Below are positions 15,479 through 32,844 of a stretch of 41,316 nt of DNA, one piece after another. A model generated the notes under the pieces. It had not been told where the DNA came from. It was given only the letters and a program-made list of their open reading frames with translations, and did not search any database. The translations under genes were made by a program, and so were the position numbers. Origin of the DNA: a virus. The DNA is taken from UHGV virus genome UHGV-0262680; one strand, written 5' to 3'. Positions within the stretch are counted from its first letter, which is position 1; each line of letters starts with the position of its first letter.

Positions 15479-15564
15479 GCTGTTTCTCCAGTTGCTTTAT
15501 CAGGCGGAACAGCTGCCGCAGGGGCAGCTGTTCCAGGTACTGAATACTGAATCTCTGGGACAGG

Positions 15565-15960
15565 TTAACCAGCAGGTTCATCAGTGCCGCCGCCAGCGGC
15601 ATCAGTTCGCCCCCGCGTTGCCACCTCCTCAAGCATCTCATCCAGCGCGGCGGCTTTCGTGCTGATAAGCTCAAGGTCTGCCGGGTGGAGCATTCGCAGC
15701 TGTTTCATGTCCAGCGGGCCGGGGATATTACCGATTGACGCAACCTGACGGCGCATCATCTCCAGCCCCATCAGCACTTCCGAGCAGTAAGCCACCGCCT
15801 TTCCGTTCCCGCCCATGACGACGCGTTCTGCGGCCAGTTGCGCATCAATCACGTCACTGGCGGTCAGTTCGCGCAGTTTCACGGTTTTATGCAGGGTTTC
15901 ATCTGCCGTGCCTTTGCCGGTCAGAAGCCCGTGTTTCAGTTCAAATTCCATTGCGGCCAT
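15565..15960 (-). CDS. Tail assembly chaperone, 131 aa, with an overlapping alternate-frame ORF (15465-15674)
   Basis: Sits between the tube and tape-measure genes; a second-frame ORF overlaps its 3' end, the usual arrangement for chaperone frameshift products. Confidence 0.45.
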   Translation of the reverse strand: MAAMEFELKHGLLTGKGTADETLHKTVKLRELTASDVIDAQLAAERVVMGGNGKAVAYCSEVLMGLEMMRRQVASIGNIPGPLDMKQLRMLHPADLELISTKAAALDEMLEEVATRGRTDAAGGGTDEPAG

Positions 15961-15961
15961 G

Positions 15962-16318
15962 TCACACCTTCACGCATTTTTCACCGATAAAGTTCGCACT
16001 GATGGTGCCGGAATCCTCGTCCAGCTCCGCCGGGTTATCCGTGGCTGAACCCGTCATCATGTAGTTCAGGCCGTTGTCGCCGTAGAACATCACCGTGACG
16101 TCTTCCCAGCTGCTGATTTCAATCACGTCCATATCCGCTGCTGCCGCAATGGTCACCTTGATGGACGGCGAGGCCATCTTGCTGGAGATGCCCCAGACCT
16201 TGCCGCCGCCCATATGCTGGGTGCGGCTGAAGCCGCCCGGATTCAGCGTGGATTTCCCCTCGGTTTTAATTTCGCGGCCATTCACGCGAATGGTCGCCAT
16301 GCCAAGAATTTTTGCCAT
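15962..16318 (-). CDS. Tail tube protein (Mu M-like), 118 aa
   Basis: 118-aa ORF immediately downstream of the sheath gene; ATG at 16318. Confidence 0.7.
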   Translation of the reverse strand: MAKILGMATIRVNGREIKTEGKSTLNPGGFSRTQHMGGGKVWGISSKMASPSIKVTIAAAADMDVIEISSWEDVTVMFYGDNGLNYMMTGSATDNPAELDEDSGTISANFIGEKCVKV

Positions 16319-16327
16319 GCGGCCCCC

Positions 16328-17803
16328 TTAAAGCTTGAACTGAATCAGGCCTGCCAGCACACGCAGCTGGTTCACCAGATTCGGGTGGCAGATAAAGTTC
16401 AGACGGTTTTTATCACTGCTGTCGCGTGTCACCTGAAGCGTGTCCCTGTAATCGCTGAAGTTCTCCACAAGGCCCGCCGGGAGGAGTTCGGTCTGGCAGA
16501 TATCCAGCAGCTCTGCGGTGCACAGCTTCGGCGTCATCACCGGCTGCCCCGCATCCAGCGAGTCCAGCACGTCATCGTCCGCCAGCTTGTGGCGCGGATA
16601 ACGGTTCGAGAAACGGTTTTTGATGATGTAACGGATACGGCCCAGCGTGGCGGGTGACTGCACATCCAGGTACGACACATCCGCATCACCGTACTGGTTA
16701 ACCCGGTACATGGTGATTTCACGCTCGATGCAGACGTTATCCCCGGCGTCCACCATGTGCGTGGCAATGCCGTCATGCAGCAGCAGATTACGCTCCGGCA
16801 TATCCCAGCGAACATTACGCGCAGGCGGCAGAATGCCGGTCAGAACCAGCGTCTGAAGCGGACGCGCCGGGTCAATGGCAAGGTGATACGCTGCCGTTGC
16901 GCCGTATGACGCGGCCCACATCCACGCCGGGTGCGGTGACAGGTTGGTGCCGATACAGCTAATCAGCCAGTCATTGCGGGTTTCACCAAACGTGCCTGTC
17001 TCGCCGTGTGTGCCACGAAACGCCGTCCACAACTGCGCCTCCATCATTTTGAGCGGCCCCCAGCGGTTCAGCAGTTCATCACGCAGGGTGTTCAGGCTTT
17101 TCGTGTCGGTGAACGGGGCGATGATATCGGTAAACCACTCCGGGCCGATGGCCGCAACGGCGTCTGTCATTTCCGGTGTCCCGGTGCCGCCGGTAAACGC
17201 GGTTGCGGTCACCTTCACACCTGCCGGGAAGGCTTCACCGGTGTAGTAGTTCAGGCGAACGTCGGCACCGTTGCCGGTGACACCGTGCCAGTTCACGGTT
17301 AGCTCCACGGTATCCGTGGCATCATCCTTCACCGCAGCGGCCACCTGCGTGGCTGGCTTTTTCGTCACCGCATCAGCAATGGCTTTTGCAATGTTTTCCT
17401 TCGTATCCCCGGCGCTCACGCTCACCTGAACGGACACACCGTTAATCAGCAGTGCCACCGTTCCGGCGTCGGTCGCTGTACCCAGCACGGTCAGCGTGGC
17501 TTTTGCGGCAGCGCCTTCAGGCGCGGCAACCGGCATTGCCCAGGTTTCCGTGTACGTGTTGGCACGACGCAGCATTTTGAGCATTTCAGCCAGCATCGAC
17601 CCTTTGCCATAAAGCTGGTCTGCCTGGCTGTCACTGGTGATGCGGGTCAGTGACAGGGCGTCTGCGCTGCCGGACGATACCGCATGGCCCATGACCAGAA
17701 TTTTTCGGCTTTGCGCGGATGCACCCTCCAGCGCCTGTGAATTGTCGATATCGATCCAGACAAGCGGGACGCGGATATCATCAGGAATTGAACCCAGCGA
17801 CAT
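16328..17803 (-). CDS. Contractile tail sheath protein (Mu L-like), 491 aa
   Basis: About 490 aa directly upstream of the tube gene, as in myovirus tail modules. Confidence 0.8.
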   Translation of the reverse strand: MSLGSIPDDIRVPLVWIDIDNSQALEGASAQSRKILVMGHAVSSGSADALSLTRITSDSQADQLYGKGSMLAEMLKMLRRANTYTETWAMPVAAPEGAAAKATLTVLGTATDAGTVALLINGVSVQVSVSAGDTKENIAKAIADAVTKKPATQVAAAVKDDATDTVELTVNWHGVTGNGADVRLNYYTGEAFPAGVKVTATAFTGGTGTPEMTDAVAAIGPEWFTDIIAPFTDTKSLNTLRDELLNRWGPLKMMEAQLWTAFRGTHGETGTFGETRNDWLISCIGTNLSPHPAWMWAASYGATAAYHLAIDPARPLQTLVLTGILPPARNVRWDMPERNLLLHDGIATHMVDAGDNVCIEREITMYRVNQYGDADVSYLDVQSPATLGRIRYIIKNRFSNRYPRHKLADDDVLDSLDAGQPVMTPKLCTAELLDICQTELLPAGLVENFSDYRDTLQVTRDSSDKNRLNFICHPNLVNQLRVLAGLIQFKL

Positions 17804-18003
17804 TATTTTTTCCCTCTGGTTTTGTTGTTATTTTTCGGAAGTGTGGTTATTTCCACATCTCCCTCGGCTTCACGGCGCAGCCAGTAAGCGCAGACATCGA
17901 GACGTTCCCCTTCCGGGGATAAATGCGCGCCATCCGGTTTACGGACACGAACGCTTTCCCGCGCTGGCTTAATCAGTTTCTGTTCCATCGTCACCCCGTA
18001 CAT
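17803..18003 (-). CDS. Small hypothetical protein, 66 aa
   Basis: ATG at 18003; lies between the head-completion genes and the sheath gene. Confidence 0.35.
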   Translation of the reverse strand: MYGVTMEQKLIKPARESVRVRKPDGAHLSPEGERLDVCAYWLRREAEGDVEITTLPKNNNKTRGKK

Positions 18004-18580
18004 GGATCACGTCGTTAATCTCAGTATGTTCACCGCTACGCAGCGTTGTCCCGAGGCGCAGGAAGTCCGGGAGCGCGGCGAGATCAATCTCTTCATCCAG
18101 CTGAAATTCCTGCTCCCACGTCACCGCCCACATGGTGACGCCCAGCCCGTCGAGGCTGGCGGAGTAAATGTTGTCTGCCCGCACGTCAGCAGCCATGCGT
18201 TCAGCCCCCATGCCCGCTGTGGCATCTGACGACAGCAGACGTTTGATCACCTTCCCGGCCAGCACTTCACAGCGCACGTCGCGGGAGTACCCCCACGAAT
18301 CCGTCGCCATGATGTAAGCCACCCAGGTGACCAGACCGGACAGCCCGCCGCGCGGGTTAATATCCCGGACGCGCAGGGCAGCTACCCGGATACAGCCGGT
18401 GCGACCGGACAGATAGCGTTTCACTTCATCGGGGCTGTTGAACTGGCCGATGTGACGCTCCACCACGTCGGCCCGGTCAGGGGTGTTTCCCTGAAGCGCT
18501 GTTTTCAGCCAGGCCACAATGCGCTCTGCGGCCGCAACTGTGCTCCCCGGTGTGCGCAGTTCAGGGCGTTGTTCTGTCAT
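17969..18580 (-). CDS. Head-tail joining / tail completion protein, 203 aa
   Basis: Position in the block between the major head and sheath genes. Confidence 0.4.
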   Translation of the reverse strand: MTEQRPELRTPGSTVAAAERIVAWLKTALQGNTPDRADVVERHIGQFNSPDEVKRYLSGRTGCIRVAALRVRDINPRGGLSGLVTWVAYIMATDSWGYSRDVRCEVLAGKVIKRLLSSDATAGMGAERMAADVRADNIYSASLDGLGVTMWAVTWEQEFQLDEEIDLAALPDFLRLGTTLRSGEHTEINDVIHVRGDDGTETD

Positions 18581-19119
18581 GGCAGAACCTCCTTCCAGAA
18601 ATGACTGATAACCTGTTGCAGCTCCTGCTGGTTGGCAGAAGACAGCCCCAGAAATTCACGTTGTGGAATATTCATCATGCGGTTATGTGCGCCGACGGTC
18701 TGCCAGACCGGATATTTCAGCGCCCGCCCGAAACACTGCGAGATAAGCCGCTTGTGGGCGCTGACCGGCACACTGCCGGAAAAGCCGTCATTCATGATGC
18801 GGGCATAATCCAGCGGTGAACCGATACGCACCACGCGGTTTTCCACAATGTACTGGATACTCTCCAGTAGATGACCTTCACCGCGCAGCAGACTCTGGTT
18901 GCCGTGGCGGGTCTTTTTGTACCCGTCAGACCAGTCCGGCCAGCGTTCGCCACCCGGACTGGTTTTCTCATCGATGATGCGGCGGCGGGTCTGTGATTCC
19001 ACCACCGCACCGATGCTTTCCAGCAGCTCTGCCTGCAATGAACCATCTGCCAGCTTTTCAACGGCACGGCGGATATCCTCCAGCCGCTGGTCACCGCTGA
19101 CCTGTACAGAAATCCCCAT
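18577..19119 (-). CDS. Head-tail joining protein, about 180 aa
   Basis: Position; the track start at 19122 is GTG and an ATG follows at 19119. Confidence 0.4.
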   Translation of the reverse strand: MGISVQVSGDQRLEDIRRAVEKLADGSLQAELLESIGAVVESQTRRRIIDEKTSPGGERWPDWSDGYKKTRHGNQSLLRGEGHLLESIQYIVENRVVRIGSPLDYARIMNDGFSGSVPVSAHKRLISQCFGRALKYPVWQTVGAHNRMMNIPQREFLGLSSANQQELQQVISHFWKEVLP

Positions 19120-19556
19120 CACAGCACCCCTTTCAGGTTGTTACGGGTGAACAGCCGGGCATTGGCACCCACCACAATGATCTTCCCGTGGTCGGTTTCT
19201 GCCGGGGTGGCATACGTCGGCAGACCCAGGTCACGGGTGCCGTTCGCCATCTCACGCAGGGTTTTAATGGCGTCGTCGTAGCGTTTCTGGATCAGCTCCG
19301 TGATTTGATTGTCACGCTCTGACAACCAGTAAAACGCCAGCGATACCGCCACGCGTTGCAGCGGGCGCGGGATTTCCGTCACTCCCAGCGGCAGCGGGTA
19401 GCGGCGGGACAGAAACGAATCAATTTCCGCTTCGGCATCACTGATGGCCTGACGGATTTTGTCTTCATCCAGTTCGTTGGTTTCCCGGTTAATCGCCATG
19501 TTCCAGACAAGATTGCCGTCCGCGCGTAACAGGTCTTCCTGCGTGATATACCCCAT
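19119..19556 (-). CDS. Head completion protein, 145 aa
   Basis: Position; ATG at 19556. Confidence 0.4.
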   Translation of the reverse strand: MGYITQEDLLRADGNLVWNMAINRETNELDEDKIRQAISDAEAEIDSFLSRRYPLPLGVTEIPRPLQRVAVSLAFYWLSERDNQITELIQKRYDDAIKTLREMANGTRDLGLPTYATPAETDHGKIIVVGANARLFTRNNLKGVL

Positions 19557-19867
19557 CAGCCTTTCTCCGCTTCCCGGACAATCAGATTCGGTTCAGCCAT
19601 CAGGCGGGTGGCAACCGCAGCGGTCACCGCCACATCCTCACCGGCATGTGACCAGAAACGGCCACAGCGCCAGAACCCGTTTTCAGACACGGCCCGGACG
19701 TTCAGCCGGACAGGGGCGTCACCCTGTACAGCAGTCGGGGCTTCAGCCGGACGTGGTTCATTCGCCTGACCGTCAGCCACAATAACGTCTGCCAGCGGTG
19801 CCGGGTTTTCCTGTGCTGCGCTGTTCTTTGCGGCTTTCGCGCCTTTGGTTCCTGCTTTTTCACTCAT
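19556..19867 (-). CDS. Small hypothetical head protein, 103 aa
   Basis: ORF immediately downstream of the major head gene. Confidence 0.35.
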   Translation of the reverse strand: MSEKAGTKGAKAAKNSAAQENPAPLADVIVADGQANEPRPAEAPTAVQGDAPVRLNVRAVSENGFWRCGRFWSHAGEDVAVTAAVATRLMAEPNLIVREAEKG

Positions 19868-19945
19868 GACTCTGCCTTTTAAAAGGCAGTTAAAAGGGCA
19901 TTCACAGCGCCTTTTAACTGCGGGTTACAGATTACGGATGACGGG

Positions 19946-20848
19946 TTATGCCGGGGTGGTGATGAACGGACTGACCACGATGTCCACATCCTTGTACCAG
20001 ATGTTGGAATCGCCGCCGTTAACCAGCATGGCGTCAATGATGCGCTTCGCGGCTGCACGGTTTTTCGGCCCCACCACAAGGGTGGTCGGGCGGATGCCCA
20101 GCGGTTCACCGTTGGTAGCCTTCATACCCAGCAGCAGATTGCTGGCCTTCTCGTAGTTCTCCGCTGTCAGTGCCGCACGGGAACCGACGGCGGTCTGCCA
20201 GAAGCCGAAGCCCGCATTGCAGCGACCGTCCACCCCGTAAAGGAACTCGTTATTCTTGAAGGTGTGCTCGCTGTTCAGATCATCCAGGGCTTCAAACTTA
20301 AAGGCGCGTCGCGTCTGCCAGATGATGGGTTTCAGTACCTGAGAATCATCAATCAGGAACCACGGTTCTCCCTGGTCTGATGCCGGGGTGCCGACAACGT
20401 TGCTGCAGGTGCCGTCGCCCAGCGGGTGGTCTTCATCAAAGAAGTTCTGACCGTCAAAACACAGGGTGTTAAACCCGGCACACAGCAGGGGGTAACACAG
20501 CTTGTCCGGGAACTCCGACGTCTGGCGGCCATAGCGTTCAGCGATAATGCTGTACTGACCAATCTGATCGTCTTCAATGTGTTCGCGTTTAACGCGGATC
20601 GAACTTTCCCAGGTTTTGTTCGCAAGGGTGTAACCATAACCGTCCAGCGTTGCCATCTGACGGGCGCTGACCCATTCTTTAATCTCCGGTAAATCCTTCA
20701 TCCAGCCGTAGGTATTGGAGGCGGACGAACTCGGGATTTCAGAGGCGATACGCTGCCACTGTGGGGTGACACCACTCAGACCACGGGTATAAGCGGCGCT
20801 CAGACAGGTGGTCAGCGCGTGAAGGACTTCGGAAGTGACTGCTCCCAT
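19946..20848 (-). CDS. Major head (capsid) protein (Mu T-like), 300 aa
   Basis: About 300 aa directly downstream of the protease/scaffold gene, as in Mu. Confidence 0.7.
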   Translation of the reverse strand: MGAVTSEVLHALTTCLSAAYTRGLSGVTPQWQRIASEIPSSSASNTYGWMKDLPEIKEWVSARQMATLDGYGYTLANKTWESSIRVKREHIEDDQIGQYSIIAERYGRQTSEFPDKLCYPLLCAGFNTLCFDGQNFFDEDHPLGDGTCSNVVGTPASDQGEPWFLIDDSQVLKPIIWQTRRAFKFEALDDLNSEHTFKNNEFLYGVDGRCNAGFGFWQTAVGSRAALTAENYEKASNLLLGMKATNGEPLGIRPTTLVVGPKNRAAAKRIIDAMLVNGGDSNIWYKDVDIVVSPFITTPA

Positions 20849-21810
20849 CAGTTATTCTCCTGTTTTGGTTTAGCGGCGAGGAACTCTTCCCCGGTAATAC
20901 CCATGCTGCGGCACATCGCCAGTTCGGCGTCGGTCAGTGTCTGCACGGGTTTATCCTTGCCCTGGCTGGGCTTGTCGTTGTTCACCAGCGGCTGTGCACC
21001 TCTGGTGTACTCCGCAAACTGTTTGCGGCCTTCTTCCGTACGGCAGGTGGCAAGGAACATGTCACGGTTTGCCGGGGCCACTTTTCCGGCTTCGATGGCC
21101 GCATCCACAAGCGCTTCTGCTTCCTTCTCTTCCAGTTGCTGAAGGCGTTGTTCTGCGGTTTCGGCACGGTTCAGTGCCAGATTGTGGGTTTCCACCGGCA
21201 CAAACTTCGTCAGATCAGGTGTCTGTGCGCGGTTCAGCGCCACCTGTTCGTTCTCCTGAAGTTGTTTAATGGCGGCCACGGTATCGTCCACCGTGGCGGA
21301 TTCAGCCAGCCCAAGCAGGCCGGTGATTTGCACAGGTACTGTCATCGGGTTTTTCTCCGTATTCAGTGCAGGAAAATCCAGGTTAGGTTTGTTGGTCAGC
21401 CCGACGCTGGACAGGCGTGTCACCGCACCGTCCGCGTCAAAGAAAAACGCCGGGCTGTAATAGCGGTAGCGGCGCTCGCTCAGCATCCACCGGGCGGACT
21501 CACTCCAGACAACACGGCCTTCAATGGTGCTGCTGTCCGTCACCCGCAGTTCCTCCACCCAGCCATACGCCGGAGCATCTTCACCCCGCGGGCCTTTAAT
21601 TTCGGTGGCGTGTTCAATGTCCACCGGAATTTTGATGTCGGACGAACGGGCAACCACCTCATGTGGATTGCGGTTAATCCACGTCCGGCCATCGCGCCCG
21701 GTGAACTCACCCGCAGGGACGAGTTCAAGCCATTCCGGCAGTTGAGCGGGTGTCAGCTCATTGATGGGTTCTGGCAGGGAAAAACACAGCGCCAGCAGTT
21801 CCGGTTGCAT
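20848..21810 (-). CDS. Head protease/scaffold protein (Mu I-like), 320 aa
   Basis: First gene after the F-I intergenic region; has a C-terminal charged, coiled-coil-like scaffold region. Confidence 0.65.
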   Translation of the reverse strand: MQPELLALCFSLPEPINELTPAQLPEWLELVPAGEFTGRDGRTWINRNPHEVVARSSDIKIPVDIEHATEIKGPRGEDAPAYGWVEELRVTDSSTIEGRVVWSESARWMLSERRYRYYSPAFFFDADGAVTRLSSVGLTNKPNLDFPALNTEKNPMTVPVQITGLLGLAESATVDDTVAAIKQLQENEQVALNRAQTPDLTKFVPVETHNLALNRAETAEQRLQQLEEKEAEALVDAAIEAGKVAPANRDMFLATCRTEEGRKQFAEYTRGAQPLVNNDKPSQGKDKPVQTLTDAELAMCRSMGITGEEFLAAKPKQENN

Positions 21811-21850
21811 GTCAGTCTCCGTCGTTTGGGGTTACTGACGGTCAGTATGC

Positions 21851-21890
21851 GGAAGGCAGAAAAAAAGCCGGATTTACCGGCTTCACTGAA
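21851..21890 (-). promoter_or_regulatory. Conserved 40-bp dyad-plus-T-run element, copy 1 (late-promoter or terminator candidate), 41 bp upstream of the I ATG
   Basis: Minus strand TTCAGTGAAGCCGGTAAATCCGGCTTTTTTTCTGCCTTCC; nearly identical to 29411-29450. Confidence 0.5.
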
Positions 21891-21905
21891 AACGGGAAGA
21901 ATACC

Positions 21906-21949
21906 CCCTTCAAAACCCCTTCAAAAACGCCACAGCGCCTTCAAAAACG
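21906..21949. repeat. Three direct repeats of CCTTCAAAA(ACG) in the F-I intergenic region
   Basis: CCCTTCAAAA at 21906, CCCTTCAAAAACG at 21917 and GCCTTCAAAAACG at 21937. Confidence 0.6.
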
Positions 21950-22024
21950 TCAGAATGCACATTCACGCCATCAGAATAAAAAACGCGTTTCTGATGCATT
22001 TCAGGGGGATTTACGGCGGGAGGG

Positions 22025-22789
22025 TTATTCACTGTCAAAACGGGCCTGTTTTGTCGCCAGCTGGCGCGCCAGCTCCTGCTCACGGTTTATGCCGGGATTG
22101 TAGTTCCAGCCCGGATCAATCCCTTCCGGCACATCTTCCTCTTCGCCCGTGCGTTTGTTCACCCAGCGGACAGTTCTGATTTCCGGCGCTTCGGTGTGAA
22201 TGGTGCCCTGTGCCGCCAGTTGCGCATATTCACCTCGGCTGACCTGACGGATGGTGCATTTGCAGCCCCAGCCGTTAGGGGCAAAATGCGTCTGCCAGAA
22301 CGGATGATCTACCGGCAGACACAGACGCGCCCATTTCACATGCTCCGCCCGGTGCTCGCGGGATGGCCCCAGCTCGTAAATCAGATACGGCATGGCCCGT
22401 TTTGTCCGCTGAATGCGTTCCCACTGGCCCGCTGCGCGGGCGGTGCGCATGTTGGTATCAAAAATCGTGCGGAGGCGGCGGTCGCTGCCCAGCTGTACGG
22501 TGCGCGTTTCTCCTGTCAGCGGATCATCCATCTCCTGTACGCCCCACCATCCGCGTTTTATCAGCAGCGGTTGCAGCGCCTCCCGGAACTCACTGAACGT
22601 CTGCCCGCTTTGCAGGGCGTCTTCCACAAGGGCTTTCACATCCGACAACAAATCCAGTTGCAGCATTTTTGCCACGGTGAAGCTGTTCCGGTGTTCTTCC
22701 CGCCACACATCCCGGTAATCAAAACCGGGGCGCAGCTTCTTCGCCTTCAGCCACGCCAGCGCCTCTTTCGGGATGAGGGTTTCACGCAT
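22025..22789 (-). CDS. Mu F-like head morphogenesis protein, about 254 aa
   Basis: Immediately downstream of the portal gene; ATG at 22789 with GGGAG upstream (the track start at 22846 is TTG). Confidence 0.65.
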   Translation of the reverse strand: MRETLIPKEALAWLKAKKLRPGFDYRDVWREEHRNSFTVAKMLQLDLLSDVKALVEDALQSGQTFSEFREALQPLLIKRGWWGVQEMDDPLTGETRTVQLGSDRRLRTIFDTNMRTARAAGQWERIQRTKRAMPYLIYELGPSREHRAEHVKWARLCLPVDHPFWQTHFAPNGWGCKCTIRQVSRGEYAQLAAQGTIHTEAPEIRTVRWVNKRTGEEEDVPEGIDPGWNYNPGINREQELARQLATKQARFDSE

Positions 22790-24353
22790 GAGCAGTGTCT
22801 CCCAGTGCTCGCGCCTTAAAGCACACCTCTGCCAGTTGCAGGGCAAAGTCGTCCGCGTTCAGCGTTTCCTGAAGCTCAGGCAGGCGTTTCAGAAAGTCAT
22901 CAAAACTGTCGCATTCCTGCGCCAGTGTCAGCACCGGGTTCGTGAACGCCTCGCCGGTTTTCTGCCAGTCACGCAGGGCATCATCCACCATCTGTGCCAG
23001 TTCGTCGGGGTGTTCCCGGTTCAGGGCGACGCGCTCACGGTTCATCGCCATATCACCTGGCACCCCGGCAGACACAGGATGCAGAACTTCCGCCCCTTCA
23101 TCCGGTTCAGCAAAACCGAACCGGTCCCGCAGCTCCGATTCCTGAACCCGCAGCCCCCGGTCAATCAGCGGCACGACGGCGTCTGTCAGCGCCTTCAGAT
23201 CTTCTGCTTCACTGATACGCAGAACAACACGGGGGTAGTGCGCCTGTGTCCCGTAGTTGGCCTCGATGTAGGGACGTACCAGATATTCGTTCAGCGTGTT
23301 AGCCAGCTGCCGCGCATCCCAGCGCACAATGTCCATGCGCACCTGATTGTGCACGTCCGCCTGTGAACGCGAACTGCCGTTATCCGTGGTCATGGTCTGC
23401 CCCAGCACAGCCTTACTGATTTGCGCATCACACCATTCCGCCATTTCACGGAACAGTGCACCGCCGTTATTCCGGCTGGCGGTTTCCTGCATCTCCAGTT
23501 GCATGGACTGCGGAATGGCACACCCGGCATCCGAGGCAATGGAGGCAATCGCGTCAATCAGCACGCGGATTTGCTCCTCCGTGGCGTTGGGGCCGTATTT
23601 CCCCACCGTGACCGGAATGCCGAATTTTTCCGCAAATGCCCACCAGTCACGTACGGTAAAGGATTTCAGCATGTACATTACCGCCACCAGACGGGCCAGA
23701 CCGTTACGCAGCGGCAGACCGGATTTCAGACGCGGCTGGTGAACAATGAATTTTCCCGGTGTCAGCGGTACGCCATCCACCGGCTCATCGTCAGTCAGCA
23801 GGCGGAACTGGCGCAGCGTGGGCTTTTCGGCTTTCAGAAAACGGGGATCAACCCACTCATAATCACGGGGCACCCAGTGGTTGTTGCGGGTGTTCCAGAG
23901 AATTTCACAGACCGCCACACCTTTTCCCAGCCCGTCGAGCAAATCAAACAACAGTTCGGGAATTTGCGGAGCGTCCATCAGCGCCCGGATGGCGTCCGCC
24001 AGCTGCACGTCGGCATCGTCATCACTGGCGGCAACCACCACCGGTTCGATACCGGCTACCGTCAGCTTGCGGGTGCGCAACACCGAAGCGTAATGCAAAT
24101 CGCGTTCTTCCATCTCTTCGGCAAGGATAAAAAAATCACGTGTGATACCGTCGGCAGCATTGCGCAGAATACCTGCCAGCCTGCCGGGATTCAGCCCGGA
24201 AGCGACACTGATGCCCGGCGAGGCCGAGCGCACACCTGCCTGACGCGGACGGGCCTGTACTTCATCGAGCCTCTCTTTTTTCAGCGTATCTTCCTCACCG
24301 GTTGCCGGGTTCAGCAGACGGCGAACGGCTCCGGCCAGTTGTTTCAGGTTCAC
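22782..24353 (-). CDS. Portal protein (Mu H-like), 523 aa, GTG start
   Basis: Directly downstream of the large terminase gene; GTG at 24353 preceded by GAGGGAGG. Confidence 0.75.
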   Translation of the reverse strand: MNLKQLAGAVRRLLNPATGEEDTLKKERLDEVQARPRQAGVRSASPGISVASGLNPGRLAGILRNAADGITRDFFILAEEMEERDLHYASVLRTRKLTVAGIEPVVVAASDDDADVQLADAIRALMDAPQIPELLFDLLDGLGKGVAVCEILWNTRNNHWVPRDYEWVDPRFLKAEKPTLRQFRLLTDDEPVDGVPLTPGKFIVHQPRLKSGLPLRNGLARLVAVMYMLKSFTVRDWWAFAEKFGIPVTVGKYGPNATEEQIRVLIDAIASIASDAGCAIPQSMQLEMQETASRNNGGALFREMAEWCDAQISKAVLGQTMTTDNGSSRSQADVHNQVRMDIVRWDARQLANTLNEYLVRPYIEANYGTQAHYPRVVLRISEAEDLKALTDAVVPLIDRGLRVQESELRDRFGFAEPDEGAEVLHPVSAGVPGDMAMNRERVALNREHPDELAQMVDDALRDWQKTGEAFTNPVLTLAQECDSFDDFLKRLPELQETLNADDFALQLAEVCFKARALGDTAHA

Positions 24354-25885
24354 AGTAAACCTCCCTCATTTTTCAGGCCGCGTGTCAGTTTCATCTGGCG
24401 GCGCGTGTTGCCTTCTTCCGGTTTCGCCGGGCGGTTCAGGCGGTGCAGCTCGTAACGGTGGCAGTCATCCTTGCTGGCAAGGAAGCCCAGGAAAATGGCC
24501 ACAGCGGCATCGCCGTGACGCTTGCGGCCATCGCTACCTTTAGTACGGGCATCGTCAATGCCGGGAACACCACGCAGTAACTGAATGGCCCCGAGGTCAT
24601 TGATCACGTCTTCATGCTTCGGAAGGATCAGCTCATCATCTTCAAACGCTGCACGGAAACGGGGCATGTTTTCGCGGTAGAACGCCACGGACAGCATCAC
24701 CTGTTCCACCTCATCGCCGTACCGCTCCGCCGCCTGTTCTGCCAGATACTGACCATTCCCCCGTGCATCCATTTTGATACCGTCACGACGGGGCAGACGA
24801 TCGCAAAGCCAGAACAGCACCTGCTCCTGCTGTTTAAACGGCATATTGCCAAGCTCAACCAGGAACGGCACCTCGCGGGTGGTGTCATCGTTCACCGTCA
24901 CAGGGGCCAGTACGGTCAGGTCACCCGAACGCGCAAAGTCTTCCCCCAGACAGTGGCGCAGGTTCTTCGGGAGTTTTTCCAGCTCGGGGCGCACCACCGT
25001 CTCCAGCCATTCCCGGATTTCTGCCCGGCGCTGGCTTTCTGTCAGTGCGTTAAATTCCGGTGTGCCGGTAAAGCGCAACACTTTCCCGGTGCCACGGGCC
25101 GCACGTTCACGCAGTGAGCGAGGGATATACGTGCCGCCGCCGTTTTTCGGGACGCAGTAGTATTCCTCCAGGGCGTCTTCGCGGGTGGCAGTATTTCTCA
25201 GCAGACCTTCTTTCCATTCCGCCTCGGCCTCCGGTGACCACACCATGCCGCGCACCTGACAGATACGCCGGTACAGCCCGTCATTGCAGGCATCATCCAG
25301 CGTGATGGTGTGAATACGGTAATCTTTTTTGCCTGCGCGGCTTTCCTGAATCAGCTGGTTAAACGGGTTGTCCACGCCGTCATGGGTAGAGATAAGGCGA
25401 ACCTTACCGCCCCACGTGGTCAGTGGTGTGACCGCCTTGAGTACCTCATCCAGTTGTTCATGAAACGCCGCCTCGTCGATGGTGACATTCCCCTGCATCC
25501 CGCGAATGTTGCCCGGATTACTGGACAGCGCCTTGACCTTAAATCCGCTGGCGAAGTACACGACGAACGTCAGAATGTCCTTGTCTTCGTCGGTGATCAC
25601 TTCCTCGCGGATTTCTTCTGCTGCCGCATTAAACGCTTTCGCCCACATTGCCACGGCGTCGATAAATTCGCGGGCCATCTCCTTATTCGAACCGATATAA
25701 AAGTGATCGCTCCCGCCGTTTTCCTTCTTCAGTGATGCGGTCAGTGCCGCATCTGCCGCTTCTGCCCAGGTTAAACCGGTACGGCGGGATTTCTCGGCGA
25801 TTTTCAGTTTTGAATCATCCGCAACCCAGCGTTTCTGATACGGCAGCAGAACATCGGATTCACTGAACGTGTTCATCTGTGTCAT
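24350..25885 (-). CDS. Terminase large subunit, 511 aa
   Basis: About 510 aa directly upstream of the portal gene; Walker-B-like VTIDEAAF motif. Confidence 0.7.
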   Translation of the reverse strand: MTQMNTFSESDVLLPYQKRWVADDSKLKIAEKSRRTGLTWAEAADAALTASLKKENGGSDHFYIGSNKEMAREFIDAVAMWAKAFNAAAEEIREEVITDEDKDILTFVVYFASGFKVKALSSNPGNIRGMQGNVTIDEAAFHEQLDEVLKAVTPLTTWGGKVRLISTHDGVDNPFNQLIQESRAGKKDYRIHTITLDDACNDGLYRRICQVRGMVWSPEAEAEWKEGLLRNTATREDALEEYYCVPKNGGGTYIPRSLRERAARGTGKVLRFTGTPEFNALTESQRRAEIREWLETVVRPELEKLPKNLRHCLGEDFARSGDLTVLAPVTVNDDTTREVPFLVELGNMPFKQQEQVLFWLCDRLPRRDGIKMDARGNGQYLAEQAAERYGDEVEQVMLSVAFYRENMPRFRAAFEDDELILPKHEDVINDLGAIQLLRGVPGIDDARTKGSDGRKRHGDAAVAIFLGFLASKDDCHRYELHRLNRPAKPEEGNTRRQMKLTRGLKNEGGLL

Positions 25886-26463
25886 GCGCTAATCCCCAGA
25901 ATGTCCCGTTTGATGGTGTCAGCCGCACCGCCTGACAGACCGCCCGTTCTGACCAGCTCTTCGGTTTTTTCTGCCATCTCCTGCGCAAACGCATCGCGGA
26001 TCGCTTTCTCGCGTTTATGGCTGGTCATGGCGGCTGCTTCCAGACGCTGGGCAACCAGCGCCAGTTGGCCCAGCGCCTTCGGTGCAACGGGCTTGTCGTC
26101 TTCTGCCATCGACATGGACGTTTCAAAGGCCAGCGTTTTTACAAACTCCATCAGCAGCTTGCCGACGTCTGACGTCGGCGCGGAACCCAGCTTTGCCGCC
26201 CAGACCTCGGCCATCTCGCGGGAGGCGCGGATTTTGGCCCCGACTTTTTCCATACGGCTGGCATAGCGGTTTAAGCCCGTCCGGCTTAACTGCATCTCTT
26301 CCGGCAGGTTGTGTTCGTCAATCAGGGTGTTGATGGCTTCGCGGATTTCTTCCTGCGTGTGCCGCTTTTCCCGCAGCATCTGATGTAACTGCTCCCGGAT
26401 GCTGTCCGGGAGTAAATCCACTTTGGAAAGACGGCCACGGGTGGGGCGTTGTTCATTTTCCAT
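25882..26463 (-). CDS. Putative terminase small subunit / DNA-packaging protein, 193 aa
   Basis: Immediately upstream of the large terminase gene. Confidence 0.4.
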   Translation of the reverse strand: MENEQRPTRGRLSKVDLLPDSIREQLHQMLREKRHTQEEIREAINTLIDEHNLPEEMQLSRTGLNRYASRMEKVGAKIRASREMAEVWAAKLGSAPTSDVGKLLMEFVKTLAFETSMSMAEDDKPVAPKALGQLALVAQRLEAAAMTSHKREKAIRDAFAQEMAEKTEELVRTGGLSGGAADTIKRDILGISA

Positions 26464-26740
26464 CTTCAGACCTCTGCGTTTTCAGACCGGCGTATATTTC
26501 TTCACGAACGGACTGAATATCCTTACTTAACAGCTTCCACAGCCGCGCACATGCCGGTGATGATCGCAGGGCGCGTTTCATGGGGGTATCCGGTGCATCC
26601 GGGTTCCAGGGCTTTCCTGTCTGTTTTTCGTATGCACGGACAATGGCGTTTTGCTCAATATCTGCCAGCACAAGGCAGTACGCCAGTTGCCGCACGACGG
26701 CCCGTTCTCCGCGACTTAACGGCTTCAGTTTTCGGGCCAT
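26453..26740 (-). CDS. Hypothetical protein, 95 aa
   Basis: ATG at 26740; in the operon between the lysis and packaging genes. Confidence 0.35.
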   Translation of the reverse strand: MARKLKPLSRGERAVVRQLAYCLVLADIEQNAIVRAYEKQTGKPWNPDAPDTPMKRALRSSPACARLWKLLSKDIQSVREEIYAGLKTQRSEDGK

Positions 26741-26742
26741 GC

Positions 26743-27036
26743 TCAGTCCCTCGCACGGGGTTTTTTAACGCCCGGAACGCCGGACAGGCCGTTTGCCACA
26801 TCCTCGCCGCTGCCGGTGATTTCAGCCACGTAACAGCCGCCCACATCAGACAGACGAACCAGCCCCTGCTCGCGAAGCCATGCAAGCTGAGTGCGCACCA
26901 CATCACGGGATACCTTATGACCGTAAGCCTGAAGGCAGGTCTGCAACACGGATTCATTCGCGCTGTCGCCACAGTCCAGCAGGGAACGCAGTAACACCAG
27001 ACGACGGTCTTCAGTGAGGATCTCTTTCATCGCCAT
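26743..27036 (-). CDS. Hypothetical protein, 97 aa
   Basis: ATG at 27036. Confidence 0.35.
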   Translation of the reverse strand: MAMKEILTEDRRLVLLRSLLDCGDSANESVLQTCLQAYGHKVSRDVVRTQLAWLREQGLVRLSDVGGCYVAEITGSGEDVANGLSGVPGVKKPRARD

Positions 27037-27341
27037 TAATTTTTTTCCTTTAACTCGTTCTCTAATAACAAATCGCTGATGCGGGATACCTGGCGGATGG
27101 ATGGCCCCAGTTCTTTGATTTCTCCCCGCAGATTGCTGATATCCAGTTGCAGGCGGTGGAACTCATCACGGTCAGGTAAATGGTGTACCTGGCTTTCCAT
27201 CACCGACACGCGGGAACGGAGTGAATCAAACTCTTCACGTTTGACGTAGGTTTTCGCCAGTATCAACTGAAGCAGGTTTATTCCTGTCATCAGCAATGCC
27301 CACAGAATGGGCCAGTTGGCTCTGATCATTTCCCAGGACAC
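27036..27341 (-). CDS. Membrane-anchored coiled-coil protein (i-spanin-like), about 101 aa
   Basis: N-terminal hydrophobic segment WPILWALLMTGINLLQLIL followed by a coiled-coil-like region; sits in the lysis region. Confidence 0.4.
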   Translation of the reverse strand: MSWEMIRANWPILWALLMTGINLLQLILAKTYVKREEFDSLRSRVSVMESQVHHLPDRDEFHRLQLDISNLRGEIKELGPSIRQVSRISDLLLENELKEKN

Positions 27342-27553
27342 GTTTTCCTCCTGCGTTCCCGAATATGCTGACAGTCAATACAGGTCACCACATCCGGCAG
27401 CGCCGCAAGGCGTTGTGCCGGAATAACGTTCCCACAGTCATTGCAGCAGCCCCGACTATGGGGCGCTTCTTTTGTCCGCGTCTGCCAGGCGTTAACGACG
27501 CTCTGACGTTCGTTCATAACCACTTCACTGATGCGGTCGATTTCGTCGGTCAT
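27326..27553 (-). CDS. TraR/DksA-type zinc-finger protein, 75 aa
   Basis: CCNDCGNVIPAQRLAALPDVVTCIDC, a C4 zinc finger typical of phage TraR-like proteins. Confidence 0.6.
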   Translation of the reverse strand: MTDEIDRISEVVMNERQSVVNAWQTRTKEAPHSRGCCNDCGNVIPAQRLAALPDVVTCIDCQHIRERRRKTCPGK

Positions 27554-28158
27554 TTCGGCCCCGCAGAGATTTTGTGACGGCTCGATTTGCTGTACCGGGC
27601 AAAGCCGTCCATGGTTCTTACTCCGAGATAGCCCAGCGCCGGGGTAAGCAACATCAGCGTGATATCCCAGTCCGGTGACGGCATATGCAGTGTGATACCT
27701 CTGGCACCGGCAATGGCTCCGGCAATCTGGCCACAGGAGAGCAACAGCACATAGGTCAGACTGCTGTAACAGGAAAGACGGGCCAGCAGCGGGCGCGTCT
27801 GGCGCACATAGCTGTCCGCAGCGTTGTCACCATTGCGGATGGTTTCCTGCTGTTCGTGATGCGCGGCCTGCTCGTCAGCCAGCACCAGCTTCTGCCGTTC
27901 CACCTCAAGCTGTTGTAACTGGACTTTCAGCGTTTCCAGTTGCATCAGTTGCTCCGGTGACAACGCCGTCAGTTGTTGTTCCAGAATGCGTTGCTGTTCG
28001 GTAACCGGCAGGCTTTCCCGGACGCTTTCCACCATACCGGCCACCGAGTCAGCGGCGGCAGATGTGCTACCACCAAACCAGCGCCCGACGGAACGAATCA
28101 GCCCCGGCCCGGCTTTCAGCAGAACAGAGGCGATGCCTGAAAGGGTTAACGGATCCAT
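27550..28158 (-). CDS. Lysis-associated membrane protein with C-terminal hydrophobic segments, 202 aa
   Basis: Coiled-coil middle region and two C-terminal hydrophobic stretches. Confidence 0.4.
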   Translation of the reverse strand: MDPLTLSGIASVLLKAGPGLIRSVGRWFGGSTSAAADSVAGMVESVRESLPVTEQQRILEQQLTALSPEQLMQLETLKVQLQQLEVERQKLVLADEQAAHHEQQETIRNGDNAADSYVRQTRPLLARLSCYSSLTYVLLLSCGQIAGAIAGARGITLHMPSPDWDITLMLLTPALGYLGVRTMDGFARYSKSSRHKISAGPK

Positions 28159-28556
28159 GAATCCCCCTTATGAAAACTGCGCTGATGTTTATAAAGTGCC
28201 GCGCAAAAGATACCGCCCAGCCAGAACGCCAGCTGATAAGGCTCCTTCAGATAAAGAAGGCCGAATGTCAGCATGAAAAGACCAACGGCCCAGACCACCC
28301 ATGACCACACGACAATTCGAAGGGAGGCGGCCCGGAAACGCCTTTTGGGTTGCAGGCGATTAGGTACGTTGCCCAGCGAGAAACTGTGAATCAGGCAGAG
28401 TGTCGCGCCGTATGCCAGCACCATGACCGCAAACGCCCGCCATCCGGCAAAACAGCTCGCCAGAAAAAGTACTGCCGACAGCCCCAGAAACGACCACTGG
28501 TACAACATAAAGCGGGAGTAAATAACGCGAACAAAAAGACTATTCATTCTGTGCAT
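28146..28556 (-). CDS. Multi-pass membrane protein (holin-like candidate), about 136 aa
   Basis: From the ATG at 28556: MHRMNSLFVRVIYSRFMLYQWSFLGLSAVLFLASCF..., with about four hydrophobic segments. Confidence 0.4.
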   Translation of the reverse strand: MHRMNSLFVRVIYSRFMLYQWSFLGLSAVLFLASCFAGWRAFAVMVLAYGATLCLIHSFSLGNVPNRLQPKRRFRAASLRIVVWSWVVWAVGLFMLTFGLLYLKEPYQLAFWLGGIFCAALYKHQRSFHKGDSWIR

Positions 28557-28767
28557 TGAGTTTTTCCTTGTACTTCTGGCACTGCCAGAAAATGTCCCGT
28601 GTATCCACGGAGTTCCAGCCACGCATGTAGTAGCTGGCGTGTGTACCGTCATGACCGGTATAGTCCACCGGCTCTGGCGGCGGACCTCCGTCCATACGAT
28701 GTAAAACCTCCTGACGCAGGCGGTCACGCCGCCCGGCTCTTAGCGAGGCATCCCAGCCTTTACCCAT
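28540..28767 (-). CDS. Hypothetical protein, 75 aa
   Basis: ATG at 28767, just after the lysin stop. Confidence 0.3.
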   Translation of the reverse strand: MGKGWDASLRAGRRDRLRQEVLHRMDGGPPPEPVDYTGHDGTHASYYMRGWNSVDTRDIFWQCQKYKEKLNAQNE

Positions 28768-28768
28768 A

Positions 28769-29365: not shown

Positions 29366-29410
29366 AAAAGCACCTGTGAAGCAGAGTTAAACGTGGTCTG
29401 CTTCATAGTG

Positions 29411-29450
29411 CCGGAGGCATAAAAAAAGCCGGATTTACCGGCTTCATTGA
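29411..29450 (-). promoter_or_regulatory. Conserved 40-bp dyad-plus-T-run element, copy 2, 46 bp upstream of the endolysin ATG
   Basis: Minus strand TTCAATGAAGCCGGTAAATCCGGCTTTTTTTATGCCTCCGG; nearly identical to copy 1. Confidence 0.5.
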
Positions 29451-29464
29451 ATTAAAAAAGATGA

Positions 29465-30899: not shown

Positions 30900-31177
30900 T
30901 ATCGTACCTCCAGAAAAGGGGGCGGTGCGGCAACACCGCCAGAATCCACTCACTAAACAGAGGAAACTTTTTATGAAAAACAGTGAACAGCCTTATGATG
31001 TTGCAGGGTATGTCATTGCCTCAAGGTTGCTGATACTCCTTGTCAGAAAGGGGCTGATTACCGCAGAGGAAGGCAAAACGATCCTCGAAGCCGCAGCAAG
31101 CGGAGCGGCAGAGGCTCCGGCATTGAGAACAACGAATAATCCCATCCTGCAAATATCACAGCTAATCACTGATACCA

Positions 31178-32202: not shown

Positions 32203-32300
32203 TTTTTATTTCTCAGATATCAGATTCAGGCGCGAGCAATCCCCTGACGCATCGCGCCATAATTAAAAGATTGTGAATTAATTAAATATTAATGGTGGTA

Positions 32301-32825: not shown

Positions 32826-32844
32826 TAAATAAAGCTCCTGTCAA

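What the first reader, a model, noticed from the sequence alone, without database searches (positions are those of the whole stretch)
21811..22024. Structured F-I intergenic region near the centre of the prophage (possible strong-gyrase-site analogue)
This 214-bp non-coding gap lies about 16.0 kb from the left end and 17.6 kb from the right end, close to the middle of the element. It contains the palindromes AAACGCGTTT and GAATGTGCATTC, three direct repeats CCTTCAAAA(ACG), and one copy of the conserved hairpin element. In Mu the strong gyrase site that promotes end synapsis sits centrally between G and I; here G is absent and the gap occupies the equivalent place.
Basis: inference. Interest (0 to 1): 0.45.

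Follow-up and report, generated by a model that had tools for sequence, protein, structure and literature searches.

The report
Mu-type gyrase site plus late promoter
The 214-bp gap at the centre of this Mu-like E. coli prophage is the counterpart of phage Mu's central strong gyrase site, followed by a terminator and an activator-dependent promoter for the head genes; this is a known kind of element in a prophage lineage where it has not been annotated.

Summary
The window carries a 33,688-bp Mu-type transposable prophage (4251..37938, genes on the minus strand). Its ends are 29/30 identical to Mu's, with a 5-bp target duplication. The F-I gap (21811-22024) is homologous to Mu's G-I gap.

- **Gyrase site.** The three CCTTCAAAA repeats are the phased T-tracts of the Mu strong-gyrase-site right arm. 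They sit at the same distances from the predicted cut as in Mu.
- **Motif score.** I used two approximate rebuilds of the published E. coli gyrase motif, checked on Mu, where the real site ranks 2nd. They place the best site of the whole prophage at 21960/21961, 47.4% along the genome.
- **Relatives.** The site stays top-ranked in 19 alleles. It appears in the same register in a Klebsiella phage and in Mu-type E. coli prophages, three of which carry this right arm at 95.7% identity.
- **Promoter module.** The "conserved hairpin" matches Mu's middle-promoter module: Mor-binding box, intrinsic terminator and -10. It occurs twice, before lys and before I, in a phage with one Mor homologue and no C.

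The two palindromes are not conserved. A G homologue exists elsewhere in the prophage. Verdict: a new member of a known kind, of moderate interest.

The parts
21811..22024 (-). F-I intergenic gap; homologue of Mu's G-I gap (gyrase site plus the promoter for I)
   Evidence: ORF map. Local alignment to Mu 17760-18080 scores 50 against 21.1 +/- 3.0 for shuffles. Multiple alignment A3.
21898..22027 (-). Predicted 130-bp gyrase-wrapped region (motif positions -63..+66). It starts at the F stop codon and ends 10 bp before the Mor-like box.
   Evidence: Top-scoring window with the regression matrix: 11.68, rank 1 of 41,187, against 9.44 for the Mu site on the same scale. Rank 2 with the independent count matrix. 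Left arm, core and right arm all contribute (z 2.4, 2.3, 3.8).
21961..21964 (.). Predicted 4-bp staggered cleavage. Plus strand reads GAATGCAC|ATTC|ACGCCATC; phage-forward reads GATGGCGT|GAAT|GTGCATTC.
   Evidence: Position of the matrix maximum. The first right-arm repeat unit starts at +13 from the cut, as in Mu, whose top-scoring site (stagger 17876-17879) abuts the gyrase cut annotated at 17879/17880. Inference; not mapped experimentally.
21981..22027 (-). Left arm. Contains CATCAGAAACGCGT, which resembles Mu CATCAGAAAACGCGT, and the AAACGCGTTT palindrome.
   Evidence: 14/15 match to the Mu left arm, but weak on its own (z about 2.3). 32% of columns vary among 19 alleles.
21898..21944 (-). 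Right arm holding most of the T-tract repeat block (TTTTGAAGG on the phage-forward strand). The first T-tract (21943..21947) straddles the core boundary. A fourth T-tract lies at 21889-21892.
   Evidence: T-tracts start at +17, +37, +49 and +72, against +15, +37, +51 and +72 in Mu (read from the sequences). This arm is the largest matrix contribution (z 3.8). Only 1 of 25 columns in 21909-21933 varies. The repeat block 21902-21947 is 95.7% identical over 46 bp to the G-I gap of Mu-type prophages in E. coli TUM9757, PEC422 and SE11.
21872..21887 (-). Mor-box-like 16-bp element AGTGAAGCCGGTAAAT, centred at -43.5 from the predicted start
   Evidence: 14/16 identical to the Mu Pm Mor dyad AGTAAAGCCGGTTAAT (Mu 9173-9188). 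The dyad spans -51 to -36 according to PMC4287176. Invariant in 19 alleles.
21858..21884 (-). Hairpin (8-bp stem, 5-nt loop) plus T7 run; an intrinsic-terminator-like element overlapping the Mor-like box
   Evidence: Terminator scan. RNA fold gives -12.8 kcal/mol, z -3.1. Same structure as Mu 9176-9200. 0 of 30 variable columns.
21836..21849 (-). -10 hexamer CATACT (21849..21844) and predicted transcription start near 21836 for the I operon
   Evidence: Same spacing from the T-run as the Mu Pm hexamer TATCCT, and aligned with Mu P_I CAAACT. Inference; the start site is not mapped.
29397..29448 (-). Second copy of the same module upstream of the endolysin gene: box AATGAAGCCGGTAAAT, identical hairpin and T7, -10 CACTAT, predicted start near 29397
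   Evidence: Identical 22-mer, sequence, fold -12.6 kcal/mol. The TTTTGAAGG repeats are absent here.
29941..30351 (-). Mor-family activator gene, the presumed activator of both modules
   Evidence: PF08765, E 7e-30. 59% identical to Mu Mor and 32% to Mu C. The next ORF has no similarity to C.
22025..22846 (-). F-like head morphogenesis gene, upstream neighbour
   Evidence: PF04233. RefSeq annotates a shorter start.
20848..21810 (-). I protease/scaffold gene, downstream neighbour
   Evidence: PF10123, E 6e-45.
4251..37938 (-). The Mu-type transposable prophage whose centre the site occupies
   Evidence: Both ends 29/30 identical to the Mu L and R termini, with a 5-bp ATTCC target duplication. 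Gene map.

Best explanation
The gap holds two adjacent cis-acting elements inherited from a Mu-like ancestor.

**(1) A strong DNA gyrase site (22027..21898).** Gyrase would bind with its cleavage centre at 21961-21964. It would wrap the right arm, where T-tracts recur in helical phase at +17, +37, +49 and +72, around a GyrA C-terminal domain. Processive supercoiling from the middle of the 33.7-kb prophage would then extrude a plectonemic loop. That loop brings the Mu-type left and right ends together for transposase synapsis and replicative transposition, as shown for Mu.

**(2) A Mu-Pm-type module (21887..21836).** An 8-bp hairpin with a T7 run would terminate the upstream lys-to-F transcript. 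It overlaps a 16-bp box centred at -43.5. The phage's single Mor-family activator would bind this box and recruit sigma-70 RNA polymerase to a -10-only promoter (CATACT) for the I-T head operon. An identical module precedes lys.

**Shown and inferred.** Shown here: the homology, the geometry, the motif scores and their conservation. Inferred: gyrase cleavage, the effect on transposition, termination, and Mor dependence.
For: **Homology**
- Alignment to the Mu G-I gap scores 50, against 21.1 +/- 3.0 for shuffles.
- The repeats align with the Mu right arm, and GGtGTATgaaTCCCGTTTT and the P_I region are also conserved.

**Gyrase motif**
- I built a regression matrix from 618 published cleavage sites with the authors' scores (cross-validated r 0.87) and an independent count matrix (r 0.85).
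- Both rank the real Mu site 2nd of 36.6k positions.
- Both place 21960/21961 first within the prophage: 11.68 and 9.73, against 9.44 and 8.83 for Mu.
- No position in 275 kb of E. coli K-12 exceeds 10.71 with the regression matrix.

**Register and location**
- The predicted cut is in the same register relative to the right arm in Mu, this phage, Klebsiella phage Kp4866-3 and the TUM9757 Mu-type prophage.
- The site lies at 47.4% of a prophage whose ends are 29/30 identical to Mu's.

**Relatives**
- The site is rank 1 of about 8.8 kb in all 19 related IMG/VR loci with the regression matrix, and rank 1-4 with the count matrix.
- The most diverged alleles score higher than the reference, whereas random substitution sets of equal size lower the score (P <= 0.006).
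- The right arm is shared at 95.7% identity with otherwise 76%-identical Mu-type gaps.

**Literature**
- The right arm is the essential part of the Mu site (PMC13284261).
- Strong gyrase sites occur in Mu-like prophages (PMC3820752).

**Promoter module**
- The box is 14/16 identical to the Mu Mor dyad, with the same hairpin, T-run and -10 spacing.
- The phage encodes a Mor homologue and no C.
- There are two identical copies, before lys and before I.
- 0 of 30 columns vary among 19 alleles, against about 35% at third codon positions.
Against: - There is no experimental cleavage or transposition data for this phage.
- The matrices are approximations. The exact published matrix was cut from the held supplement, and exact recovery failed (rms 0.56).
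- The approximate matrices rank Mu's own site 2nd rather than 1st.
- Similarity to Mu in the left arm and core is weak (z about 2.3).
- The core and left arm vary about as fast as synonymous sites.
- The alleles used are phylogenetically related, so those counts are not independent.
- In a 57%-identity relative (L036) the homologous position ranks only 6th and 60th. In 35%-identity relatives from unknown hosts no site stands out upstream of I.
- From memory of Oram & Pato 2004, which the paper library does not hold: central sites of some Mu-like prophages were cleaved by gyrase yet did not support Mu replication.
- The Mor-like box is a poorer dyad than Mu's (AGTGA/TAAAT).
Confidence: 0.75

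Rival explanations
1. The gap is only a transcription-control region (terminator plus Mor-dependent promoter). On this reading the T-tract repeats are an extended UP element or binding sites for the activator, IHF or another DNA-bending protein that helps the promoter, and they have no special relation to gyrase.
For: The promoter/terminator module is the most conserved part of the gap (0/30 variable columns). A/T tracts upstream of the Mor site are known to bind the RNA polymerase alpha C-terminal domain at Mu Pm (PMC4390567). The high matrix score depends largely on the same T-tracts.
Against: - The identical promoter module before lys has none of the repeats, which occur only in the F-I gap.
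- The repeats lie about 55-125 bp upstream of the predicted start, beyond the proximal UP subsite. At Mu Pm, mutations upstream of -57 had no effect.
- The left arm and core also score positively.
- The repeats align with the experimentally defined right arm of the Mu site, in the same register to the cut.
Confidence: 0.12
2. It is a relic. The sequence descends from the Mu site and still resembles a gyrase motif, but in this G-less, shorter phage it no longer matters for transposition. It would be a weak or non-functional site, like the Haemophilus and Salmonella prophage sites reported to be inactive in Mu.
For: The core and left arm vary at near-neutral rates. From memory of Oram & Pato 2004 (not held in the library), being cleaved by gyrase was not sufficient for biological function.
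Against: - The score is top-ranked in all 19 alleles, and it rises rather than decays in the most diverged ones.
- The right-arm segment 21909-21933 is nearly invariant.
- That segment is shared at 95.7% identity with a different Mu lineage.
- The central position is retained.
- The transposition ends are almost identical to Mu's.
Confidence: 0.1
3. The gap encodes a product of its own: a small protein (29-aa ORF from ATG 21998 to 21910, minus strand) or a small RNA ending at the terminator.
For: An ORF exists. The hairpin plus U-run could be the 3' end of a short transcript. There is a weak sroD-like Rfam match (18.9 bits, E 0.78).
Against: - The ATG is ACG in three related E. coli alleles, and no Shine-Dalgarno sequence precedes it.
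- The Rfam hit is far below the gathering score of 50.
- No sigma-70-like promoter is found in the gap.
Confidence: 0.03

Closest known systems
[quoted passage not shown]
   Same: - It lies centrally in a Mu-type transposable genome, immediately upstream of the I promoter.
- The right arm is homologous, with T-tracts at the same distances from the cut.
- It is the extreme match to the E. coli gyrase motif within the phage.
- The right arm is the strongest contributor to the score.
   Different: - G is not the upstream gene. The whole 130-bp footprint is non-coding here, whereas Mu's left arm lies inside G.
- The core and left arm are barely alignable.
- The repeat unit is TTTTGAAGG rather than TTTTAAA(A/C)CG.
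- The CATCAGAAACGCGT motif is about 20 bp closer to the cut.
- Function is untested.
Central gyrase sites of other Mu-like prophages (Oram & Pato 2004: E. coli O157 Sakai Sp18, Neisseria, Haemophilus, Salmonella Typhi)
   Same: The concept is the same: a gyrase site at the centre of a Mu-like prophage, varying in sequence and presumably in strength.
   Different: This lineage was not among those tested, as far as I can tell. No O157 Sakai record appears among the 50 E. coli records that match the gap. The 2004 paper could not be read here, so the comparison rests on memory and on citations in PMC3820752 and PMC10052514.
Mu middle promoter Pm, with its Mor-binding dyad and the overlapping hairpin and T-run after mor
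   Same: - The 16-bp box is 14/16 identical and centred at -43.5.
- The hairpin architecture and T7 run are the same.
- It is a -10-only promoter at the same spacing.
- The phage encodes a Mor orthologue (59% identity).
   Different: Here the module drives the late operons (lys and I) directly and occurs twice, and no C-type second activator is encoded. In Mu, Pm drives the C operon, and P_lys and P_I are C-dependent with TTAT-N5-6-ATAA sites (PMC12867686).
Mu late promoter P_I
   Same: It has the same position in front of I, and the -10 and surrounding bases align (ours TCCGCATACTGAC, Mu CCCGCAAACTGAC).
   Different: The activator site resembles the Mor box rather than the C box.

Membership tests
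Mu-type strong gyrase site | Located near the centre of a Mu-type transposable prophage | tested here: met
   The predicted cut is at 47.4% of a 33,688-bp prophage whose ends are 29/30 identical to Mu's, with a 5-bp target duplication. Mu's site is at 48.7%.
Mu-type strong gyrase site | Sequence homology to the Mu site | tested here: met
   Local alignment scores 50 against 21.1 +/- 3.0 for shuffles, covering the right arm through P_I. The left arm and core are only weakly similar (z about 2.3).
Mu-type strong gyrase site | Outstanding match to the 130-bp E. coli gyrase binding/cleavage motif (top site of the phage genome) | tested here: met
   Rank 1 of 41,187 with the regression matrix. Rank 2 with the count matrix, and rank 1 inside the prophage. 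The Mu positive control ranks 2nd. The matrices approximate the published one, with r 0.85-0.87 to the authors' scores.
Mu-type strong gyrase site | Right arm with phased bending signals, the essential determinant in Mu | tested here: met
   T-tracts start at +17, +37, +49 and +72, against +15, +37, +51 and +72 in Mu. The right-arm partial score has z 3.8. The role of the right arm is taken from PMC13284261.
Mu-type strong gyrase site | Preferential, efficient gyrase cleavage with quinolones, and enhanced processive supercoiling | not testable with these tools
   Needs Topo-Seq or in vitro cleavage and supercoiling assays.
Mu-type strong gyrase site | Required for timely end synapsis and replicative transposition | not testable with these tools
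   Needs deletion or replacement in a lysogen.
Mor-dependent (Pm-type) promoter | 16-bp Mor box centred at -43.5, a recognisable -10 hexamer, and no -35 | tested here: met
   AGTGAAGCCGGTAAAT is 14/16 identical to the Mu box. CATACT sits at the same spacing as Mu TATCCT. The numbering depends on a predicted start site.
Mor-dependent (Pm-type) promoter | Cognate Mor-family activator encoded by the phage | tested here: met
   PF08765, E 7e-30; 59% identity to Mu Mor.
Mor-dependent (Pm-type) promoter | Transcription start and activation dependent on the activator | not testable with these tools
   Needs 5' end mapping and reporter assays.
Intrinsic (rho-independent) terminator | G+C-rich stem-loop followed by a U-run on the transcribed strand | tested here: met
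   8-bp stem with 5 G-C pairs, 5-nt loop and U7. Fold energy is -12.8 kcal/mol, z -3.1. Termination in vivo is not tested.
C-dependent late promoter (Mu P_lys/P_I type) | C activator encoded, and a TTAT-N5-6-ATAA site | tested here: not met
   There is no C homologue: the 159-aa ORF after mor has no similarity to C and the Mor-family protein is only 32% identical to C. The box resembles the Mor dyad, not the C consensus quoted in PMC12867686.

The most novel reading that the evidence does not exclude
The gyrase site behaves as an exchangeable, selectable cassette. Its right arm has moved between two Mu lineages. The Mu-type prophages of E. coli TUM9757, PEC422 and SE11 carry this phage's right arm joined to a Mu-like left arm and core. 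The fast-changing core would then hold natural strength variants, analogous to Mu's nuB up-mutations, and selection would tune gyrase affinity. In addition, the site sits between the end of the lys-to-F transcript's coding part and its terminator. Late transcription could therefore feed positive supercoils into it, coupling gyrase recruitment to the phage's transcription programme.
Probability: 0.2. Interest if true: 0.55.

Novelty: new member of a known kind. Interest (0 to 1): 0.4.

Why it matters
Strong gyrase sites are rare, and Mu's is the reference substrate for gyrase mechanism and structure. This finding offers three things.

- **A second natural allele series.** There are 19 or more variants that keep the T-tract geometry of the right arm while the core and left arm vary freely. 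That is a ready-made comparative data set for asking which features make a site "strong".
- **Better annotation.** The region is an unannotated gap in all 47 RefSeq records that carry it. This prophage family occurs in about 0.9% of complete E. coli genomes, including STEC and ETEC strains.
- **A simpler regulatory cascade.** In this lineage a single Mor-type activator appears to drive the late operons directly.

None of this overturns current understanding.

Tried and rejected
- **Consensus matching failed its control.** I scored windows by identity, or by G+C pattern correlation, to the published 133-bp gyrase consensus. The Mu site ranked only 247th and 27th, so I dropped the method.
- **Exact matrix not recovered.** The sheet holding the published matrix (DS10) is cut from the held supplement. 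Alternating least squares on 618 (sequence, score) pairs, modelling the maximum over both strands, did not converge (rms 0.56-0.70). I therefore used two approximations and say so.
- **Distant relatives uninformative.** IMG/VR relatives at 30-39% identity show no standout site upstream of I. Their hosts are unknown and an E. coli matrix may not apply.
- **No RNA family.** Rfam gave nothing above threshold.
- **Small ORF rejected.** The start codon of the 29-aa ORF is not conserved.
- **Palindromes rejected as functional cores.** They are not conserved.
- **Further promoters unresolved.** A loose pattern search for more Mor-type promoters (T[AT]AAT-N21-23 followed by a -10-like hexamer) gave mostly chance-level hits.
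- **Key papers unavailable.** Oram & Pato 2004 and Oram et al. 2006 are not held.
- **A wasted call.** One search was unnecessary, because locus files in /data hold several records each.

Full report
**What the window is.** The genes around the finding lie on the minus strand. They follow the Mu order: terminase, portal, F, then I, T, the tail genes, and com/mom. The prophage runs from 37938 (left, repressor end) to 4251 (right, mom end), a length of 33,688 bp. Both termini are 29/30 identical to the Mu L and R ends, and a 5-bp duplication (ATTCC) flanks it. The same prophage type occurs in 46-49 of 5,426 complete E. coli genomes. The nearest deposited phage is Klebsiella phage Kp4866-3, at about 75% identity.

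**The observation.** The F-like gene (PF04233) ends at 22025 and the I gene (PF10123) starts at 21810, so the 214-bp gap is real.
- CCTTCAAAA occurs three times (21907, 21918, 21938) and nowhere else in the window.
- AAACGCGTTT is at 21981-21990.
- GAATGTGCATTC, read on the minus strand at 21954-21965, is two 5-bp arms around a 2-nt centre.
- The hairpin GAAGCCGGTAAATCCGGCTTTTTTT is at 21884..21858 on the minus strand. An identical 22-mer lies at 29423-29444.
- The quoted distances to the ends are right.
- One correction: a G-family gene (PF05069) exists at 18577..19122. G is missing only from the F-I position.

**Homology with Mu.** Mu's G-I gap (17860-18055) carries the annotated gyrase cut at 17879/17880. 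A local alignment of our gap, read phage-forward, with Mu 17760-18080 scores 50, against 21.1 +/- 3.0 for shuffles.
- Our three repeats read TTTTGAAGG on the phage-forward strand. [quoted passage not shown]
- Next comes the conserved GGtGTATgaaTCCCGTTTT, then the P_I region (ours TCCGCATACTGAC, Mu CCCGCAAACTGAC).
- To the left only CATCAGAAA(A)CGCGT is shared, which is weak on its own.

**A mosaic relative.** E. coli TUM9757 carries a true Mu-type prophage, with F, G, I and T of Mu's sizes. PEC422 and SE11 show the same 46-bp match. The TUM9757 G-I gap has a Mu-like left arm and core (ATAAAATCAcGCG). Its right arm, however, is 95.7% identical over 46 bp to ours, while the gap as a whole is only 75.7% identical to Mu. 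So our repeat block is an allele of the Mu right arm sitting in the same slot.

**Gyrase motif scoring: method.** Sutormin et al. 2019 (PMC6379681) derived a 130-bp E. coli gyrase motif. With it the known sites of Mu, pSC101 and pBR322 score highest in their replicons.
- The matrix sheet is cut from the held supplement, and a simple consensus match failed on Mu.
- I therefore took 618 published cleavage coordinates with the authors' scores (supplement parts 10-13) and the first 275 kb of W3110.
- The coordinate convention was confirmed by the G at motif position 0 and the C at +3.
- Exact recovery of the matrix failed.
- Two approximations were built. One is a symmetric ridge regression on the authors' scores (cross-validated r 0.87, rmse 1.5). 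The other is an independent symmetric count matrix (r 0.85).

**Gyrase motif scoring: result.** As a positive control, the Mu site ranks 2nd of 36.6k positions with both matrices. That site is cut at 17875|17876 with the stagger AATC, which abuts the gyrase cut annotated at 17879/17880.
- In our window the best of 41,187 positions with the regression matrix is 21960|21961, at 11.68. Mu's site scores 9.44 on the same scale, and the maximum over 275 kb of K-12 is 10.71.
- With the count matrix the same position is 2nd (9.73). The only higher site, at 40081, lies outside the prophage.
- The 130-bp window is 21898-22027. It begins at the F stop codon and ends 10 bp before the promoter box.
- All three parts contribute: left arm z 2.4, core z 2.3, right arm z 3.8.
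- Read phage-forward, the cut is GATGGCGT|GAAT|GTGCATTC.
- T-tracts start at +17, +37, +49 and +72, against +15, +37, +51 and +72 in Mu.
- The matrices put the cut in the same register in the three E. coli alleles VL40, FDAARGOS_943 and RM11911 (12.6-14.4). The same holds for TUM9757 (10.1, top of 6 kb) and Kp4866-3 (10.07, top of 4 kb).

**Behaviour across alleles.** In 19 IMG/VR loci with 95-100% identical I protein, the site 153-154 bp upstream of I is rank 1 of about 8.8 kb with the regression matrix. It is rank 1-4 with the count matrix.
- Column variability among 19 distinct alleles is 32% in the left arm, 31% in the core and 19% in the right arm. Within 21909-21933 only 1 of 25 columns varies. 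Third codon positions of F and I vary at about 35%.
- Recognition is therefore not base-by-base, which fits an indirect-readout site.
- The most diverged alleles (9-13 substitutions) score 13.4-14.4. Random substitution sets of equal size average about 10.0-10.5 (P <= 0.006 with both matrices). The alleles are related, so this is suggestive rather than independent evidence.
- In a 57%-identity relative (L036) the three T-tract repeats and the promoter are recognisable. The homologous cut position is a local peak (7.39) but ranks only 6th and 60th.
- More distant relatives from unknown hosts show nothing.

**The hairpin.** Mu 9160-9230, just after mor, reads cAGTAAAGCCGGTTAATCCGGCTTTTTTTacgtcctcaaTATCCT. 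The Mor dyad at Pm spans -51 to -36 and is centred at -43.5 (PMC4287176 and PMC4390567). That fits AGTAAAGCCGGTTAAT with TATCCT as the -10.
- Our two elements read AGTGAAGCCGGTAAAT (before I) and AATGAAGCCGGTAAAT (before lys).
- Both have the same hairpin and T7 run.
- Both have -10-like hexamers, CATACT and CACTAT, at the same spacing.
- The predicted starts are near 21836 and 29397.
- The hairpins fold at -12.8 and -12.6 kcal/mol, against -14 for Mu, and match an intrinsic-terminator pattern.
- The phage encodes one Mor-family protein, 59% identical to Mor and 32% to C, and no C homologue.
- The module is invariant in 19 alleles.

The hairpin element is therefore a Pm-type module: terminator, Mor box and -10. 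Here it is used directly in front of the two late operons, which correspond to Mu's P_lys and P_I. The lys copy lacks the TTTTGAAGG repeats. That separates the repeats from promoter function.

**Rivals.**
- A promoter-only reading is weakened by the lys copy and by the homology and register with Mu's experimentally defined right arm.
- A relic reading is weakened by the maintained or rising scores and by the conserved right arm.
- A coding or small-RNA reading fails. The ATG at 21998 is ACG in relatives, and Rfam gives only a sub-threshold hit.

**Known or new.** Central gyrase sites in Mu-like prophages are an established concept (Pato 1990 and 1994; Oram & Pato 2004; summarised in PMC3820752 and PMC10052514). 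The dominance of the right arm is also established (PMC13284261). This lineage is not annotated for the site: all RefSeq records show "none". I found no sign that it was one of the tested prophages. It is a new member of a known kind.

The modestly new points are these:
- the fully non-coding 130-bp footprint fitted between the F stop codon and the Mor box;
- the exchange of the right arm between lineages;
- the allele series with a free core and a fixed right arm;
- the one-activator cascade.

Function remains to be shown experimentally.

Noticed in passing
window 29397-29448 (minus strand): A second, identical terminator, Mor-box and -10 module sits directly upstream of the endolysin gene (28769..29365), just after a 159-aa ORF of unknown function. 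It is probably the lys-operon promoter.
   Followed up: yes
window 29465-30351: The phage has a single Mor-family activator (59% identical to Mu Mor) and no C homologue. The 159-aa ORF between mor and lys matches no Pfam family. This suggests a two-tier rather than three-tier transcription cascade.
   Followed up: partly
window 4246-4251 and 37938-37943: The prophage termini are 29/30 identical to the Mu L and R ends and are flanked by a 5-bp direct duplication (ATTCC), the signature of Mu-type transposition. This looks like an intact, recently inserted element.
   Followed up: yes
window 18577-19122 (minus strand): A G-family virion morphogenesis gene (PF05069) lies downstream of the head genes instead of between F and I. 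G is relocated, not absent.
   Followed up: partly
window 22005-22016; L006 (Klebsiella phage Kp4866-3) just after the F stop: The left arm contains a degenerate copy of the hairpin loop region (CCGTAAATCC). Kp4866-3 has a full hairpin, GAGGCGGTAATCCGCCTC, at the equivalent place right after F. This may be a remnant or an alternative position of the terminator/Mor-box element.
   Followed up: no
L010 2968-3168 (E. coli TUM9757); also PEC422 and SE11: Mu-type prophages (F-G-I order) have a central gap that is mosaic: a Mu-like left arm and core joined to this phage's right arm, 95.7% identical over 46 bp.
   Followed up: partly
window 5197-5300 (minus strand, upstream of com/mom): GGTTAAAT is followed about 22-23 nt later by GTATCT/TATCTG, which loosely resembles the Mor-box-to-(-10) geometry. 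It could be a mom-operon promoter, but the match is weak and a pattern scan gives chance-level hits.
   Followed up: partly
window 40081 (outside the prophage): This is the highest-scoring position with the count-based gyrase matrix (10.04). It lies in host-side DNA to the left of the prophage and was not examined.
   Followed up: no
NZ_CP012497.1 (136-kb plasmid of E. coli 06-00048), 121815-122027: One copy of this prophage type, with the gap 96.7% identical, sits on a plasmid. Several strains carry two or more copies.
   Followed up: no
window 4322-4347: A strong terminator-like hairpin (10-bp stem, TTAAT-containing loop, T-run) lies between mom and the right end of the prophage.
   Followed up: no
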